In this document: piece after piece, positions 21,326-28,439 of the stretch
How positions within the stretch are numbered: position 1 is the stretch's first letter
Layout: every line of letters starts with the position of its first letter
Assembly: GCF_001457595.1 (NCBI RefSeq)
Contig: NZ_LN831039.1
Location: 990,001 to 1,022,000 of the forward strand
Source: Mycolicibacterium smegmatis
GTDB taxonomy: Bacteria > Actinomycetota > Actinomycetes > Mycobacteriales > Mycobacteriaceae
Reading direction: 5' to 3'
DNA length: 32,000 nucleotides
Made by a program: the position numbers and the translations under genes
Notes under the pieces: model-generated
What the model was told of the DNA's origin: nothing
Seen by the model: only the letters and a program-made list of their open reading frames with translations
Database searches by the model: none

Positions 21326-22171
21326 GTGCGCTTTTTGATGACGCTGTTCCTGTGGCTGTTGACGACGGTGCTGCTCGCCGCGGCGGTACCCAGCGCGTGG
21401 GCGCAGAAGAACGTCATCGATGTGGCCGGTTATTCGGCGTTCGCCGAAGCCGCCGCCAAGGACCCGCAGCTGCAGCAGGCTGTCGCCGGTGAGCTTGCCA
21501 CGCAGGTGAGCACGCTCGTGCGCGACAACGGCGGTGAGGTGAACGCCGACATGGTGCGTGGTACCGCCAACGCCTACACCGCGGGGGAGGACTTCCCCGG
21601 CCAGTTCGCCCGTGCCAACGAGATCGCCCACACGTGGCTGTTCACCGACCGCATCCGGCGCGACGAGGGTGGCAGCTGGGTCATCGACCTGGCACCCATG
21701 CTGGCCGACTCGTCCTTTGAGGACACCCTGTCGAACTTCAATGTCGCAGTGCCCCAGACGCTCACGGTGCCGATCGCCTCAGAGCCGCCGTCCGGCCTGG
21801 AGCCCGGTCGGTTGCGGCCGCTGGCCACGTGGGGTCCGTGGGTGAGTGTCGGGACGACCGTCCTGGCCGGAGTGTTCGCTCTGCTGACCCTCGCTGTCGC
21901 GCGCTCGCGCGGTAAAGCCCTTGCGGCGTTGGGGATTTCCGCTCTGCTGGTCGGTGCGGCCGGCTGGGCCGGGCTGGAGGTGGCGCGCCGCTACCTCAAC
22001 GACGCGCTCAACCACACCAGCGGCGACATCCGCCAGATCGCCGACGCCATGGTCGGCCACGGCGTCGACAGCCTGCGCCAATGGCTCAACCTGACTTTGG
22101 CTGCCGGTGGCGGTCTCGTGGTGCTCGGGGTGGTTGTCGCGATGCTCGGCGGGCTGCGTCGTTCACGCTGA
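21326..22171 (+). CDS. Conserved-looking membrane protein of unknown function
   Basis: GAGGAGG lies 5 nt upstream of the GTG. There is an N-terminal signal/anchor (LLAAAVPSAWA-Q), a soluble region of about 150 aa, then three C-terminal TM helices. Confidence 0.7.
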   Translation: MRFLMTLFLWLLTTVLLAAAVPSAWAQKNVIDVAGYSAFAEAAAKDPQLQQAVAGELATQVSTLVRDNGGEVNADMVRGTANAYTAGEDFPGQFARANEIAHTWLFTDRIRRDEGGSWVIDLAPMLADSSFEDTLSNFNVAVPQTLTVPIASEPPSGLEPGRLRPLATWGPWVSVGTTVLAGVFALLTLAVARSRGKALAALGISALLVGAAGWAGLEVARRYLNDALNHTSGDIRQIADAMVGHGVDSLRQWLNLTLAAGGGLVVLGVVVAMLGGLRRSR

Positions 22172-22513: not shown

Positions 22514-22655
22514 TGAACTTGCCGCGCGCCGCAAGTGCTCATGGTTGCCACGAACACGTCGTCATCCACGGGCGACTCCAGCGCAGATCAGAGGGTGAAT
22601 CCGAGCACCCAGTTGACGAAGCAAGGTGACTTGGACCATAGTGTCTAGGACAGAA

Positions 22656-22705: not shown

Positions 22706-24070
22706 ATGAACCTCTACTCACTCCTGCAGCAACGAACCGAAGCGTCGGGTCCGGTACGCGTAGGTGTGATCGGTGCCGGCAAGTTCGCGTCGATGTTTCT
22801 CACCCAGGCGGTGAATTCGCCGAGCCTGCATGTGGTGGGCGTCGCCGATATCAACGTCTCCAAGGCCAAGGCCGCCTTGCACCGCACAGGGTGGCCGGCC
22901 GATCGGTACGCGGCGGGTTCGCTCGACGAGGCGCTACGCACCGGCGCCACGGCGGTCACCGACAACGCCGACGCACTGCTGGCCCACCCGGGCATCGAGG
23001 TGATCCTGGAGATCACCGGCAACCCGTTGGTCGGTACCTACCACGCGGTGACCGCGATCGACAACGGCAAGCACGTGGTGATGGTCAACGTCGAGGCCGA
23101 CTGCATGGTGGGCCCGATCCTGCAGCGCCGGGCCGCGGCCGCCGGCGTGATCTACGCGATGGCCTACGGAGATCAGCCGGCCCTGATCTGCGAGCTCGTC
23201 GACTGGTGCCGAACCGTCGGCTTCGACGTCGTCGCGGCAGGCAAGGGCACCAAGTACCTTCCGGAATACAACTACTCCACACCCGAAACCGTCTGGAATT
23301 ACTACGGATTCACCGACGAGCAGCTCGCCTCGGGTGACTACAACCCGCAGATGTTCAACTCGTTCCTCGACGGCACCAAATCCGCGATCGAGATGGCCGC
23401 CGTGGCCAACGCGACCGGGCTGCTGCCCCAGGAGCAGGGCCTGCTCTTCCCGCCGGCCAGCAAGGACGACCTGCCGACCGTGCTGCGCGAGAACCGCTTC
23501 CCCGGGGGCAGTCTGATGCGTCGGGGCACCGTCGAGATCGCGTCGAGCATGTACCGCGACGGCCAAGAAGTTCCGGACAACCTGCGCTGGGGCGTCTACG
23601 TCACGTTCGAGGCCGTCACCGACTACGCCGTGCAGTGCTTCGCCGAGTACGGGGTGCACACCGACGAGACCGGCCGCTACGGCTCGCTGTACCGCCCGTA
23701 TCACATGATCGGTCTGGAGCTGGCGGTCAGCATCGCCTCGGCCGTGTTGCGCAACGAGGCCACGGGCTCGCCCACCGGGTTCCGCGGCGACGTCATGACG
23801 ACCGCCAAACGCGACCTCAAGGCCGGCGAAAAGCTCGACGGCGAAGGCGGATTCACGGTCTTCGGCAAGCTCGCCCCGGCCGAGATCTCCCTCGACCGCA
23901 ACGCCTTGCCCCTCGGCCTCGCCCACGGCGCGACGCTCGTGCGTGACATCGCCAAGGACGAGACCATCTCGTGGGACGACGTGCGCGTCGACGAGTCGCA
24001 GTTCGCCGTCAAGATCCGCAGACAGCTCGAATCGGAATTCCGGTCCGAACACATCGCCGCCACCGCCTAG
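22706..24070 (+). CDS. NAD(P)-binding oxidoreductase with C-terminal SAF domain (COG4091-type, annotated elsewhere as homoserine-dehydrogenase-like)
   Basis: GAAGGAAA SD. Rossmann motif VGVIGAGKFASMF. The C-terminal beta-clip-like segment GDVMTTAKRDLKAGEKLDGEGGFTVFGKL is typical of SAF domains. 454 aa. Confidence 0.8.
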   Translation: MNLYSLLQQRTEASGPVRVGVIGAGKFASMFLTQAVNSPSLHVVGVADINVSKAKAALHRTGWPADRYAAGSLDEALRTGATAVTDNADALLAHPGIEVILEITGNPLVGTYHAVTAIDNGKHVVMVNVEADCMVGPILQRRAAAAGVIYAMAYGDQPALICELVDWCRTVGFDVVAAGKGTKYLPEYNYSTPETVWNYYGFTDEQLASGDYNPQMFNSFLDGTKSAIEMAAVANATGLLPQEQGLLFPPASKDDLPTVLRENRFPGGSLMRRGTVEIASSMYRDGQEVPDNLRWGVYVTFEAVTDYAVQCFAEYGVHTDETGRYGSLYRPYHMIGLELAVSIASAVLRNEATGSPTGFRGDVMTTAKRDLKAGEKLDGEGGFTVFGKLAPAEISLDRNALPLGLAHGATLVRDIAKDETISWDDVRVDESQFAVKIRRQLESEFRSEHIAATA

Positions 24071-24112: not shown

Positions 24113-24913
24113 GTGAATGCATCCGCCGCGCCGCCACCCGCGGCGCGGGACACAAGGAGACGACGCACCGTGACAGCAGCCGACCGCTGGGAGCCCGTTC
24201 AGCGCCTGCGCACCTACGAACAGGTGATGGCCCAGATCGAACAGCGCATCGCCGCCGGTCAGCTCCAACCGGGAGACCATCTGCCCAGCGAGCGGGAGCT
24301 GGCCGCGCTACTCGGTGTGTCACGCCCCTCGCTGCGGGAGTCGCTGCGCGTCCTGGAAGCGCTCGGGGTGGTCGAAATCCGCCGCGGCGGCGGGTCCGAG
24401 GGCGGCGCGGCCCTGCGGTCGGTCCCGGGCACCGGGCTGGTCAGCCTGCTCAAACTCCAGCTGGCACTGTCGCACTTCAGTTGGAACGACGTGCTGGAGA
24501 CCAGGCTGGCGCTCGAGCTGTGGTCGGCGAGAGAAGCCGCCTATCGATCCACTGACGACGACCACCGAGAACTCGGCGCTATTCTCGACCAGATGGACGA
24601 TCCCTCGATCGAGACCGGTGACTTCAATTGCCTGGACGCCGAGTTCCACGTGCGGATCTCCCAATCCACCGGCAATGCCTTGACCGCATACTTCATGGGG
24701 TCGCTGCGCACTGCCATCCACCATCAAATGGTCGAGATGTACGCCGCGCTCGCCGACTGGCGCGAGACGGCCAAGACGGTCAGACGCGAGCACCGCGAAA
24801 TCCTGCAAGCCCTCGTCGACCGCGACGGGCCGCTCGCGGCACAGCGCATGCAGGCACACATCTGCGACTTCTACGACCTGAAGATCAGCGGCAGCGAGCT
24901 GGCCGGCGAATAA
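24113..24913 (+). CDS. GntR-family regulator, FadR (FCD) subfamily
   Basis: wHTH GDHLPSERELAALLGVSRPSLRESLRVLEALGVVEIRRG plus a helical FCD-like C-terminal domain. GTG at 24113. An in-frame GTG at 24170 with AAGGAG 10 nt upstream is an alternative start. Confidence 0.85.
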   Translation: MNASAAPPPAARDTRRRRTVTAADRWEPVQRLRTYEQVMAQIEQRIAAGQLQPGDHLPSERELAALLGVSRPSLRESLRVLEALGVVEIRRGGGSEGGAALRSVPGTGLVSLLKLQLALSHFSWNDVLETRLALELWSAREAAYRSTDDDHRELGAILDQMDDPSIETGDFNCLDAEFHVRISQSTGNALTAYFMGSLRTAIHHQMVEMYAALADWRETAKTVRREHREILQALVDRDGPLAAQRMQAHICDFYDLKISGSELAGE

Positions 24914-24985: not shown

Positions 24986-26356
24986 ATGGACACCCCCACC
25001 ATCCCGGCACCAGCGGAGCGTGCTCGGCACGGCTCCCCCGACAAACTGCGGACCGCCATCGGCAGTGCGGTCGGCACCACGATCGAGAACTACGACTTCC
25101 TGGCCTACGGGACCGCCGCGGCCCTGTACTTCAATGACGCGTTCTTCCACGCCGACGATCCCTTGATCGGTGTGCTCATCGGCTTCGCCACGTTCGGCGT
25201 CGGATTCGCCATGCGACCCCTCGGCGGCCTGCTCGGCGGGTATCTGGGCGACCGCATCGGCCGCAAGCCGGTGCTGATCGGCGCGTTGCTGGTCATGGGT
25301 TTTGCCACCGTGATGATCGGCCTGCTACCGACCTATCAGCAGGTCGGCATACTGGCGCCGATCCTGCTGACAGCCATCCGCGTCATCCAGGGCCTCGCGT
25401 TCGGCGCGGAGTGGGGTGGCGCGATCCTGATGACATATGAGCACGCGCCGTGGAAAAAGCGCGGCCGCTACGCCGCGATCCCACAAGCCGGTGTGCCCCT
25501 TGGCGTCTTGCTGGCCAACGTGGTCTTCCTGCTCTCCAGCCATCTCGACAGCGAGCTCGCATGGCGGTTGCCGTTCCTGCTGAGCTCCGTGCTGATCGTG
25601 GCGGGCATGATCATCCGGCTCAAGGTTTCGGAATCACCGGAATTCGTCGACACCAAGGAAGCCGGCAACGTGGTCAGCAACCCGCTGAAGGAAGTGATCC
25701 GCCGCGACTGGCGCAACATTCTGCGCATCATCGCACTGCGCCTGGCCGAATCCGGCGGCTTCTACGTGATCGTCACCTACATGCTGTCCTACCTCACCAG
25801 CGGCGACGAGCCGATCACCACGAAAGCCGTCGCACTCACCGGTCTCATCGCGGCCACCGCGACCGGCACGGTCACCACCATCCTGTTCGGCATGCTGACC
25901 GACAAAGTGGGCCGAAAGCCGGTCTACTACGCAGGCACCGCGTTGCTGATCCTGTTCGCATTTCCGATGTTCTGGCTGGTCAACACCGGCTCGACGGTCC
26001 TGATCGTGCTCGTCTACATCATCGGGTTGGCGGTCATCCACGACGCCCTCGCCGCCACCCAGGGCACCTGGTTCGCCGAATTGTTCAAGACCAACACCCG
26101 CTCGTCGGGCGCCTCCATCGGCTACCAGTTCTCGGCGGCCATCTCCGGGTTCATCCCGCTGATCGCCGCAGCGGTCGCCGCCCAGCTGGGGTGGGCCGGG
26201 GTCGCGCTGGTGTACCTGGGCTGCGGTGTCCTCGGCCTCGTCGGCACGATCCTGACGCGCGAGACCTGGGGCGCCACGCAGCGCGCGGCCGTCGACTCGG
26301 TCATCAATTCTGCCGAAACACCCGGCACCGCAACGAAAGCGAAGGTTTCGCCGTGA
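24986..26356 (+). CDS. MFS transporter of the metabolite:H+ symporter type (KgtP/ShiA/ProP-like carboxylate transporters)
   Basis: 456 aa and about 12 TM. Family signatures: GTTIENYDFLAYGTAAALYF, GGYLGDRIGRKPVL, QGLAFGAEWGGA. Confidence 0.85.
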   Translation: MDTPTIPAPAERARHGSPDKLRTAIGSAVGTTIENYDFLAYGTAAALYFNDAFFHADDPLIGVLIGFATFGVGFAMRPLGGLLGGYLGDRIGRKPVLIGALLVMGFATVMIGLLPTYQQVGILAPILLTAIRVIQGLAFGAEWGGAILMTYEHAPWKKRGRYAAIPQAGVPLGVLLANVVFLLSSHLDSELAWRLPFLLSSVLIVAGMIIRLKVSESPEFVDTKEAGNVVSNPLKEVIRRDWRNILRIIALRLAESGGFYVIVTYMLSYLTSGDEPITTKAVALTGLIAATATGTVTTILFGMLTDKVGRKPVYYAGTALLILFAFPMFWLVNTGSTVLIVLVYIIGLAVIHDALAATQGTWFAELFKTNTRSSGASIGYQFSAAISGFIPLIAAAVAAQLGWAGVALVYLGCGVLGLVGTILTRETWGATQRAAVDSVINSAETPGTATKAKVSP

Positions 26357-27630
26357 AGACAATCGTTCTGGATGACGATCCCACCGGTACGCAGTCGGCC
26401 AGCGGTGTTCGCGTACTGCTGGAGTGCAGCGCGGACGCGATCGAGGAGACGCTGCGCGACGCCGAGAGCGTCTATGTGCAGACCAACAGCCGCGCACTCG
26501 CCGAGGCGGACGCGGTAGACCTCGTCCGCCGGATACGGGCAGACGGCGAAGAAGCCGCCCGACGCCTCGGCGTGGCCGTGCGGTTCGTGCTGCGCGGCGA
26601 CTCGACGCTGCGTGGCCACGTCTTCGCCGAGACCGAGGTGTTTCTCGACGACGACGCCGTCATGGTGTTCGTGCCCGCGTTCCCCGACGGTGGCCGCACC
26701 ACCCGCGACGGCGTGCACTACGTCAACGTCGGCGGCCACGACCTGCCCGCGCACGAAAGCGAATACGCCGCCGATCCGGTGTTCGGCTTCAGCACCGGTG
26801 TTCTCGTCGACTATGTCGCCGAGAAGTCAGGCCGCACAGCCGTTTCCGTTTCGCTGGCAACGGTGCGCGGTGGTGATCTGGCGACGGTGCTGAGCACCGC
26901 ACAGCCGGGCGCCGTGGTGTTGCCCGATGCCGTGGACAACGCCGACATCAGCTTGATCGCCGAGGCCATCTCCACCGCCGACGCCGCAGGCCGCAAGATC
27001 GTGGTACGCACCGCGGCTCCGGTCGCCGCCGAACTCGCCGGAGTCACGAGCCCCGGACTGCTCGGCGCACCGCTGCTCGACCGGCCGCGGCCGACGCTGT
27101 TGGTGTGCGGATCGCACACCGCAGGCGCCACCGCACAACTGGCCCCGGTGATCGACCGGTGGGGTGCACCCGTCGTCGTCGACACCGCGGGTGCCCTCGA
27201 CGATCCCGACACAGAGGGCCGCCGCGCGGCCGACCGGGTGCGCGCCCAGCTGGACGCGCGGTCCTTCGCCGTGCTGATGAGCGAACGCGACCGGTCGTCG
27301 GACCACAACACGCTGAGCCATGGCGAGCGGATCATGACGGCGCTGACCACCGCGGTGCGCGCAGCGGTGCCGCACCTGTCGGTCGTGGTGGCCAAAGGCG
27401 GCATCACGTCGGCCGAGGTCGCCCGCGCCGGGATCGGCGCCACCTCCGCCCTCGTGCTCGGCCAGATCCGTCCCGGTGTGTCTGTCTGGCAACTCGAAGA
27501 CCGCAACGGCCGCGACATTCTCTACGTGGTCGTACCCGGCAACGTGGGCGACCACGACACCCTGGTCGAGATCCTCGACGCGCTGCGCATCGGCGCCGCG
27601 GCACCGGTTGGAAGCCGACAAATTTCATGA
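26353..27630 (+). CDS. Four-carbon acid-sugar kinase family protein (DUF1537; OtnK/DtnK/DenK family)
   Basis: The GTG overlaps the MFS stop (GTGA). N-terminal IVLDDDPTGTQS motif, RGDSTLRGH, and C-terminal nucleotide-binding-like VAKGGITS...VVPGNVG. 425 aa. Only the last part of track ORF 25450..27630 is real. Confidence 0.82.
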   Translation: MKTIVLDDDPTGTQSASGVRVLLECSADAIEETLRDAESVYVQTNSRALAEADAVDLVRRIRADGEEAARRLGVAVRFVLRGDSTLRGHVFAETEVFLDDDAVMVFVPAFPDGGRTTRDGVHYVNVGGHDLPAHESEYAADPVFGFSTGVLVDYVAEKSGRTAVSVSLATVRGGDLATVLSTAQPGAVVLPDAVDNADISLIAEAISTADAAGRKIVVRTAAPVAAELAGVTSPGLLGAPLLDRPRPTLLVCGSHTAGATAQLAPVIDRWGAPVVVDTAGALDDPDTEGRRAADRVRAQLDARSFAVLMSERDRSSDHNTLSHGERIMTALTTAVRAAVPHLSVVVAKGGITSAEVARAGIGATSALVLGQIRPGVSVWQLEDRNGRDILYVVVPGNVGDHDTLVEILDALRIGAAAPVGSRQIS

Positions 27631-28439
27631 AAGCCGCACTGACCGCGGCCCGCGCGACACGAAACCCGCTGCCTGCCTTCACCTGCTACACGCTGGAGAC
27701 CGCCGTCGGCGTACTGGAAGCCGCCGAGACCGTGAGCAGGCCGGTGATCCTGTTGGTCTCCGATGCCGCGATGCGCGATGCCGCAGGTGCGCGGCTGGTG
27801 ACGGCGCTGGTCGCCGTCGCGCAGCAGGCGCGGGTGCCCGCCTGGGTTCAGCTCGACCACTGCGCCGACCTCGAGCGCATCCGTCATGCGCTCGACCTCG
27901 GCGCGGGTGCTGTCATGGCCGACGGTTCCCACCTGGACGACGCGGCCAATGCCCGGTTCGTGGAGCGTGCGGTTGCGCTCGCCGAACCGTTCGACGCAGC
28001 CGTCGAGGCCGAGCTGGGCCGCGTCGAGGGTGACGAGGACATCGACCTGGCTGTGGAGGCGGGCGCCCTGACCGATCCCGACGCGGCGCGCCGATTCGTA
28101 GCGAGCACCGGCGTGGACTGCCTGGCCGTCGCGGTCGGCAATGTGCACGGCTCCTATCGTCAACGCCCGCGGCTTGATTGGCCGCGGCTGGCCCGCATCG
28201 TCGAGGAGCTGCCGGTGGCCGTGTCGCTGCACGGCACCTCCGGCCTCCCGGCCGAGGACCGTCGCCGGGCGCAGCAGCTCGGCGTGGTGAAGTTCAACGT
28301 CAACACCGAGTTGCGGCGCGGCCACATGGCGGTTCTGCGGGACCGGATCGCCCACGATCCGGCCAGTACCGACGTGCTGGCACTCACCGCCGCCCTGCGC
28401 CGTCGGGCAGCCGAGGTCGCCGAAGAGCTCATCACCTGA
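27627..28439 (+). CDS. Class II (metal-dependent) ketose-bisphosphate aldolase family protein (FBA_II fold; GatY/KbaY/IolJ-like size)
   Basis: The ATG overlaps the kinase stop (ATGA). Motifs: PAFTCYTLE, VQLDHC, VMADGSHL, AELGRVEG, VGNVHGSY, VSLHGTSG, KFNVNTEL. These are the expected His metal ligands and catalytic Asp context. 270 aa. Confidence 0.85.
   Translation: MKAALTAARATRNPLPAFTCYTLETAVGVLEAAETVSRPVILLVSDAAMRDAAGARLVTALVAVAQQARVPAWVQLDHCADLERIRHALDLGAGAVMADGSHLDDAANARFVERAVALAEPFDAAVEAELGRVEGDEDIDLAVEAGALTDPDAARRFVASTGVDCLAVAVGNVHGSYRQRPRLDWPRLARIVEELPVAVSLHGTSGLPAEDRRRAQQLGVVKFNVNTELRRGHMAVLRDRIAHDPASTDVLALTAALRRRAAEVAEELIT

What the first reader, a model, noticed from the sequence alone, without database searches (positions are those of the whole stretch)
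27627..28439. FBA_II-fold aldolase sits where tetronate pathways use OtnC or PdxA2
The protein keeps the class II aldolase metal and catalytic motifs (LDH, GNVHG, LHGTSG, DGSH, NVNTEL). It is short (270 aa) and has no GatZ/KbaZ-type partner nearby. Its start codon overlaps the DUF1537 kinase stop. Class II FBA chemistry (Zn-stabilised enediolate of DHAP) could do two things. It could cleave a phosphorylated keto-acid sugar, as IolJ does with 6-phospho-5-dehydro-2-deoxygluconate. Or it could decarboxylate a beta-keto acid such as 3-oxo-tetronate 4-phosphate. The second option would be a non-orthologous replacement of OtnC.
Basis: inference. Interest (0 to 1): 0.6.

Follow-up and report, generated by a model that had tools for sequence, protein, structure and literature searches.

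The report
Sugar-acid decarboxylase in an aldolase fold
This Mycolicibacterium gene looks like a sugar-splitting aldolase, but it belongs to a group, described in 2024, that removes CO2 from four-carbon sugar acids; the new part is the unstudied oxidoreductase that heads its gene cluster.

Summary
Observation confirmed: 27627-28439 encodes an intact 270-aa class II aldolase-fold protein (PF01116) whose start overlaps the stop of a DUF1537 kinase.
The protein lies in a 100/96 clade of kinase-linked aldolases. AU tests reject grouping it with KbaY/GatY, IolJ or actinobacterial tagatose-type enzymes. It keeps the Zn and DHAP-phosphate residues but lacks the arginine that binds the second phosphate (0/31 kinase-linked proteins have it, 20/24 others). 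The 'GatY' database label of its M. smegmatis near-copy is therefore probably wrong.
Most likely (0.6) it turns an oxo-tetronate 4-phosphate into DHAP + CO2. The substrate is untested, and I could not obtain the characterised 2-OtnC sequence.
What is new: the dehydrogenase slot holds an uncharacterised DXR-II-like oxidoreductase (DLO2). DLO2 and this kinase lie together in 21 Microbacteriaceae genomes without such an aldolase, so this operon looks mosaic. The scan noted similar kinase-aldolase pairs in other genomes.

The parts
22706..24070 (+). DXR-II-like oxidoreductase of the uncharacterised DLO2 family (Rossmann + DRL_cat + SAF); predicted first, oxidising step
   Evidence: PF21135 at 188 bits. 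Only PDB relative is Brucella DXR-II, 3upy/3upl, E 1e-55. Single copy in the genome. A M. smegmatis MC2 155 protein is listed under DLO2 in PMC3847144. DXR-II K191 is kept (K180); K193 is T182 and T229 is S226, in 120/120 close homologs.
24113..24913 (+). GntR/FadR-type (FCD) regulator; the true start may be a later GTG
   Evidence: PF00392+PF07729; 69-75% identical to the regulator of the Microbacteriaceae modules.
24986..26356 (+). MFS transporter related to metabolite:H+ symporters; probable acid importer
   Evidence: TIGR00883 at 349 bits, below its cut-off; stop overlaps the kinase start.
26353..27630 (+). DUF1537 acid-sugar kinase of the LTD / 2-OtnK-like subfamily (DDDPTG, DSTLRG, KGGIT, PGNVG), not OtnK or DtnK; the only PF07005 gene of the genome
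   Evidence: Pfam. DtnK 83/450 bits and OtnK 44/350 bits, both far below cut-off. Tree, motifs, single copy.
27627..28439 (+). The finding: class II FBA-fold enzyme of the DUF1537-linked (2-OtnC-like) clade; probable oxo-tetronate 4-phosphate decarboxylase

Best explanation
The gene is the last step of an acid-sugar catabolic operon and works like 2-OtnC. Inferred route: the MFS imports a four-carbon sugar acid (a tetronate). DLO2 oxidises it to an oxo-acid. The kinase phosphorylates the terminal OH. This Zn enzyme (H78, H174, H202, with D77 and E137) binds the product in its DHAP site, moves the carbonyl through the enediolate if needed, and releases CO2 instead of an aldehyde, giving DHAP. 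Shown: fold, residues, clade and gene context. Inferred: substrate, the role of DLO2 and the mechanism.
For: (1) Literature: a PF01116 decarboxylase (2-OtnC) and a DUF1537 kinase (2-OtnK) form a published three-step L-threonate route to DHAP, fused in plant LTD (PMC12540250; PMC12994016). (2) The query lies in a 39-row clade (100/96) with aldolases from kinase+LtnD-like clusters, including an Arthrobacter plasmid (L043) and Nocardiopsis (L004). With eukaryotic LTD-type fusions these form one side of the tree at 84/77, 85 and 97. (3) AU rejects grouping with KbaY/GatY (p 2e-4), IolJ (1e-5) and actinobacterial tagatose-type enzymes (2e-4). (4) Zn ligands and DHAP-phosphate residues are kept. The R331 equivalent, which binds the C6-phosphate of FBP (PMC10339327), is L251; it is absent in 31/31 kinase-linked proteins and present in 20/24 others. 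Y21 and N226 occur in 31/31 versus 0/24. (5) The kinase has the motifs of the LTD subfamily. (6) The genome has a separate FbaA and a separate tagatose-type aldolase that keep DPR.
Against: No activity data. The characterised 2-OtnC sequence and the Guo 2024 paper were not obtainable, so clade membership rests on gene architecture. The operon has no LtnD-type dehydrogenase, and DLO2 is uncharacterised. The query is only 39-50% identical to aldolases of kinase+LtnD clusters and 35-41% to LTD-type domains. IolJ and YdjI also lack the arginine, so its loss does not separate decarboxylation from aldol cleavage. 21 genomes hold the same DLO2-kinase module without this gene.
Confidence: 0.6

Rival explanations
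1. Retro-aldolase for a longer oxo-acid monophosphate. DLO2 oxidises a C5/C6 acid next to the terminal carbon, the kinase phosphorylates it, and the enzyme cleaves it to DHAP plus glyoxylate or tartronate semialdehyde (IolJ/YdjI-like chemistry).
For: The full aldolase machinery is kept, including E137. IolJ and YdjI also lack R331. Proteobacterial DLO2 genes lie beside TRAP transporters and an unnamed NAD(P)-dependent oxidoreductase that matches the LtnD/GarR family. Related kinases accept longer acids (PMC12994016).
Against: The protein is not in the IolJ or YdjI lineage. It shares Y21/N172/N226/R230 with the LTD domain. The operon has no enzyme for an aldehyde-acid product.
Confidence: 0.2
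2. Decarboxylase for a branched oxo-acid phosphate such as 3-oxo-isoapionate 4-phosphate, giving erythrulose 1-phosphate. DLO2 would then be an ApnO-like oxido-isomerase.
For: DLO2 is kin to the reductoisomerase DXR-II. Apionate-lactonase-family genes lie beside several kinase-aldolase pairs. Decarboxylation of 3-oxo-isoapionate 4P is the known way to remove the branch (PMC13753588).
Against: No lactonase-family gene was found in this genome with the query used. The operon has no erythrulose-phosphate isomerase. DLO proteins that were tested failed to replace DXR.
Confidence: 0.1
3. An accessory gene: appended to a DLO2-kinase module that works without it, because decarboxylation is spontaneous or done by another enzyme.
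For: DLO2-GntR-(MFS)-kinase occurs in 21 genomes with no match to the query at E<=1e-42. LtnD-like+kinase clusters without an aldolase exist too. The identity pattern suggests a later addition.
Against: The gene is intact, overlaps the kinase stop, and is kept in M. smegmatis and a close relative. This reading is compatible with the best explanation: same activity, not essential.
Confidence: 0.06
4. An ordinary tagatose- or fructose-1,6-bisphosphate aldolase, as the 'GatY' label of its near-copy says.
For: Best NCBIfam scores are to FBP/TBP aldolase models; UniRef name of cluster member ABK73511.1.
Against: Scores of 196 or less against cut-offs of 383-444. No R331 or DPR motif. AU rejection. 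No hexitol or PfkB genes in the operon; a separate tagatose-type gene exists at G000 1552560.
Confidence: 0.04

Closest known systems
2-OtnC, 2-oxo-tetronate 4-phosphate decarboxylase of Arthrobacter sp. ZBG10 (Guo et al. 2024, as described in PMC12540250 and PMC12994016)
   Same: PF01116 fold; partner of a DUF1537 kinase of the same subfamily type; last step of an acid-sugar cluster.
   Different: No LtnD (PF03446-PF14833) gene in the operon; a DLO2 oxidoreductase stands in its place. Direct identity to 2-OtnC could not be measured.
Plant LTD (AT1G18270), C-terminal F_bP_aldolase domain
   Same: Shares Y21, N172, N226, R230 and the lack of DPR; 35-37% identity to two plant homologs; same side of the tree.
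   Different: LTD is a fusion with LtnD-like and kinase domains. Joint support is moderate (84/77 in the careful tree). The activity of this domain is itself unproven.
E. coli KbaY/GatY (tagatose-bisphosphate aldolase) and class IIB FBP aldolases
   Same: Fold (TM about 0.9), Zn ligands, DHAP-phosphate site; 33-37% identity.
   Different: No R331/DPR; N35 is T19; D288/A232 is N226; grouping rejected by AU; no KbaZ/GatZ partner.
IolJ (Bacillus cereus iol cluster) and E. coli YdjI
   Same: Class II FBA-fold enzymes placed after a kinase, acting on acid monophosphates; they also lack R331.
   Different: Different lineages (32-33% identity; IolJ rejected by AU). Their kinases are PfkB type, not DUF1537.
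3-OtnC (E. coli YgbL) and PdxA2
   Same: Same slot in DUF1537 pathways, product DHAP.
   Different: Unrelated folds (Aldolase_II PF00596; PdxA).

Membership tests
Class II FBA superfamily (PF01116) | TIM barrel with the three-His Zn site, catalytic Asp and DHAP-phosphate residues | tested here: met
   237.7 bits; D77, H78, H174, H202, G175, G203, S205, N224, T227; model TM 0.9
Bisphosphate aldolases (FbaA, KbaY/GatY) | R331-equivalent arginine (DPR) for the distal phosphate | tested here: not met
   L251; no DPR motif (role of R331 from PMC10339327)
Bisphosphate aldolases (FbaA, KbaY/GatY) | Passes an NCBIfam cut-off or groups with KbaY/GatY | tested here: not met
   All 20 models below cut-off; p-AU 2e-4
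IolJ | Groups with IolJ; lies in an iol cluster with IolC | tested here: not met
   p-AU 1e-5; no iol genes in the operon; one IolJ reference only
2-OtnC | PF01116 protein encoded beside a PF07005-PF17042 kinase | tested here: met
2-OtnC | Groups with aldolases from kinase+LtnD clusters and with the plant LTD domain | tested here: met
   100/96 for the bacterial clade; 84/77 to 97 with LTD-type fusions
2-OtnC | LtnD-type (PF03446-PF14833) dehydrogenase in the cluster | tested here: not met
   DLO2 instead; LtnD-like genes lie elsewhere in the genome at 26-35% identity
2-OtnC | High identity to the characterised Arthrobacter ZBG10 enzyme | not testable with these tools
   Paper and accession not held
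2-OtnC | Converts 2-oxo-tetronate 4-phosphate to DHAP + CO2 | not testable with these tools
   Needs an assay
3-OtnC | Aldolase_II (PF00596) fold | tested here: not met
   Only PF01116 matches
DXR-II (for the upstream gene) | K191, K193, T229 substrate anchor | tested here: not met
   K180, T182, S226

The most novel reading that the evidence does not exclude
The operon is an undescribed acid-sugar pathway. DLO2, a family with no known function, acts as a metal-dependent oxidase or oxido-isomerase on a non-phosphorylated (possibly branched or longer) sugar acid. The aldolase-fold enzyme then decarboxylates or cleaves a substrate other than oxo-tetronate 4-phosphate. This would give the first function for the sister family of DXR-II.
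Probability: 0.25. Interest if true: 0.6.

Novelty: new variant of a known kind. Interest (0 to 1): 0.35.

Why it matters
The aldolase alone is a further member of a kind described in 2024. It is worth a re-annotation, since the near-identical M. smegmatis protein is labelled GatY. A simple signature (Y21, N226, no DPR) separates the kinase-linked clade from the bisphosphate aldolases sampled here. The more useful lead is DLO2: it sits where tetronate dehydrogenases sit, in a small operon of a tractable laboratory bacterium. That makes the function of an orphan family directly testable.

Tried and rejected
Guo 2024 and Zhang 2016 could not be read; the account of 2-OtnC is second-hand from two papers. 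Searches for literature on COG4091/DLO function or on this locus returned nothing that looked relevant by title; those hits were not opened. Searches for other PF01116 decarboxylase papers added nothing. No solved structure of the kinase-linked clade was recognised among the hits. Docking was not possible.
An 'FBA' beside 10 Microbacteriaceae DLO2 modules first looked like a counterpart. It is the housekeeping class IIA FbaA (DPR kept, 21-24% to the query); the module is inserted between fbaA and glpX.
Tree tests of mosaicism were not decisive (p-AU 0.22, 0.31, 0.034), so that claim rests on identities.
The promoter-like site at 22613-22642 is 1 found against 0.4 expected; terminators are at chance level. 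Neither is used.
My notebook line 'S49->V44' was a numbering slip: S45 is kept and aligns with FbaA S61.
Long-branch rows (Deinococcus kinase-linked aldolase, P0152, P0141) are placed unsurely; the Deinococcus protein falls outside the clade.

Full report
Observation. The ORF at 27627-28439 encodes 270 aa and matches only PF01116 (237.7 bits). Its ATG overlaps the stop of the upstream PF07005+PF17042 kinase, whose own start overlaps the MFS stop. Five genes run on one strand: DRL_cat/SAF oxidoreductase, GntR-FCD regulator, MFS, kinase, aldolase. The 90% clusters of these proteins carry the names Mycolicibacterium smegmatis and M. goodii; one near-copy of the aldolase is named 'Tagatose-1,6-bisphosphate aldolase GatY'. 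None of 36 other genomes of the genus that were searched had a match above about 40% identity. The model is a complete class II aldolase barrel (pLDDT 90.7, TM about 0.9 to KbaY and Thermus FBA). The length is ordinary for class IIB.

What is already known. [quoted passage not shown] 2024). [quoted passage not shown] PMC12994016 confirms the route. So an FBA-fold replacement of OtnC is published. I could not read the primary paper or obtain its sequences. A search among longer proteins returned many kinase-aldolase and dehydrogenase-kinase-aldolase fusions.

Phylogeny. In a 79-row tree the query's nearest rows are Prauserella, Streptomyces and Tamaricihabitans proteins (62-69% identity, 99/99). 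These lie within a 39-row clade (100/96) whose members, where the context was read, nearly all lie beside a DUF1537 kinase. The clade includes kinase+LtnD-like clusters from an Arthrobacter plasmid and from Nocardiopsis. Eukaryotic LTD-type fusions are the next group, with moderate support (84/77; SH-aLRT 85 and 97 in smaller trees). AU tests reject joining the query with KbaY/GatY (p 0.0002), IolJ (0.00001) or actinobacterial tagatose-type aldolases (0.0002). All 20 NCBIfam aldolase models score below cut-off.

Active site. The Zn ligands H78/H174/H202, catalytic D77, loop E137, S45 and the DHAP-phosphate residues G175, G203, S205, N224 and T227 align with those of FbaA and KbaY. The roles of these residues are from my own knowledge. 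The arginine that binds the C6-phosphate of FBP (R331; PMC10339327) is replaced by L251. The D[PS][RK] motif is absent in 31/31 kinase-linked or kinase-fused proteins and present in 20/24 others. Y21 and N226 occur in 31/31 versus 0/24, and R230 in 30/31 versus 1/24. These rows are related, so the counts describe a clade and are not a statistical test. The DHAP half of the site is intact and the second-phosphate site is gone, which points to a monophosphate substrate with a DHAP half (inference). 3-Oxo-tetronate 4-phosphate is DHAP carrying a carboxyl where FBP carries glyceraldehyde phosphate, so loss of CO2 is the same bond cleavage; the 2-oxo isomer can reach it through the same enediolate (inference). 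IolJ and YdjI also lack the arginine, so cleavage of a longer acid is not excluded. The genome has its own FbaA and its own tagatose-type aldolase in a hexitol-type cluster, both with DPR.

The kinase. It scores far below the DtnK and OtnK cut-offs. It shares the DDDPTG / DSTLRG / KGGIT / PGNVG motifs with plant LTD and with LtnD-linked kinases, and groups with them. It is the only PF07005 gene in the genome. In related loci the neighbouring oxidoreductase varies: LtnD-like, Iso_dh family, PF01370 family, aldo-keto reductase, SDR, PdxA, or DLO2. This suggests an exchangeable first step (inference).

What differs here. There is no LtnD. The first gene's only solved relative is Brucella DXR-II. 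PMC3847144 lists a M. smegmatis protein in the uncharacterised DLO2 family, and the DLO1/2 members tested there did not replace DXR. The genome has one such gene. Of the DXR-II substrate anchors K191/K193/T229, only the first is kept, in 120/120 close homologs; this fits a different, perhaps unphosphorylated substrate (inference). In 351 genomes of one family (Microbacteriaceae, judged from named homologs and contig lengths), 27 have a DLO2 at 76% identity or more. In 21 of them it lies within 5 kb of a kinase 60-70% identical to ours. None of the 21 has a match to the aldolase at E<=1e-42 (distant members could be missed), and none of the 19 modules drawn has one adjacent. The first four genes are 66-86% identical to that module. 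The aldolase is 62-69% identical to Prauserella-type proteins whose kinases are only 43% identical to ours, whereas among those loci kinase and aldolase diverge equally (68-69% and 64-67%). The operon thus looks mosaic, though the tree tests were not decisive. The aldolase may have been added, or lost in the other lineage.

Verdict. Best explanation (0.6): a 2-OtnC-like decarboxylase that yields DHAP from an oxo-tetronate 4-phosphate. Rivals: retro-aldol cleavage of a longer oxo-acid phosphate (0.2), decarboxylation of a branched acid after a DLO2 oxido-isomerase, by analogy with ApnO (PMC13753588) (0.1), accessory gene (0.06), bisphosphate aldolase (0.04). The aldolase is a new member of a known kind. 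The operon is a new variant because of DLO2, which is the part worth testing. Earlier notes of this scan saw the same cluster and similar kinase-aldolase pairs in other genomes; they are unchecked and were not used as support. Interest 0.35.

Noticed in passing
L087-L089, L091-L093, L096-L099: In 10 Microbacteriaceae genomes the DLO2-GntR-MFS-kinase module is inserted between housekeeping fbaA (divergent) and glpX. Probably one inherited insertion; whether FbaA handles the kinase product is open.
   Followed up: partly
L001/L017, L002, L003, L018, L112: Recurring cluster: DASS or MFS transporter, Iso_dh-family dehydrogenase below every NCBIfam cut-off (L017 tested), VOC/glyoxalase protein, DUF1537 kinase, with the aldolase in all but L112. 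Candidate new sugar-acid dehydrogenase and isomerase.
   Followed up: partly
L067:4988-8791, L068:5008-8670, L100-L108: LtnD/GarR-like gene plus kinase of this subfamily with no decarboxylase gene nearby (Priestia, Ligilactobacillus, Microbacteriaceae); the third step is unexplained.
   Followed up: no
L105:3877-8459: A kinase 62% identical to the window's kinase sits with PdxA, an MFS and an amidohydrolase, so the subfamily may also take plain tetronates.
   Followed up: no
L019-L022: Apionate-lactonase-family genes lie beside or near kinase-aldolase pairs in Gaiellales-like and other soil contigs.
   Followed up: no
L070, L072-L075: DLO2 genes of Alphaproteobacteria and a haloarchaeon lie with TRAP or ABC transporters; several also have an ABM-type small protein and an LtnD/GarR-family dehydrogenase. 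A sugar-acid context without a DUF1537 gene.
   Followed up: partly
L028, L042, L066, L119: An Asp/Glu racemase-family gene directly precedes the kinase in several kinase-aldolase clusters; possible epimerase or isomerase.
   Followed up: no
G000:C1:1552560-1553390 (L039): Second class IIB aldolase with DPR, in a cluster with a Zn dehydrogenase, ABC transporter, FGGY-like kinase, DeoR and PfkB-like kinase (read from the ORFs, not scanned); the likely true tagatose-bisphosphate aldolase.
   Followed up: partly
window 21326-22171 (+): 281-aa predicted membrane protein with no Pfam match, between ppk2 and the operon.
   Followed up: no
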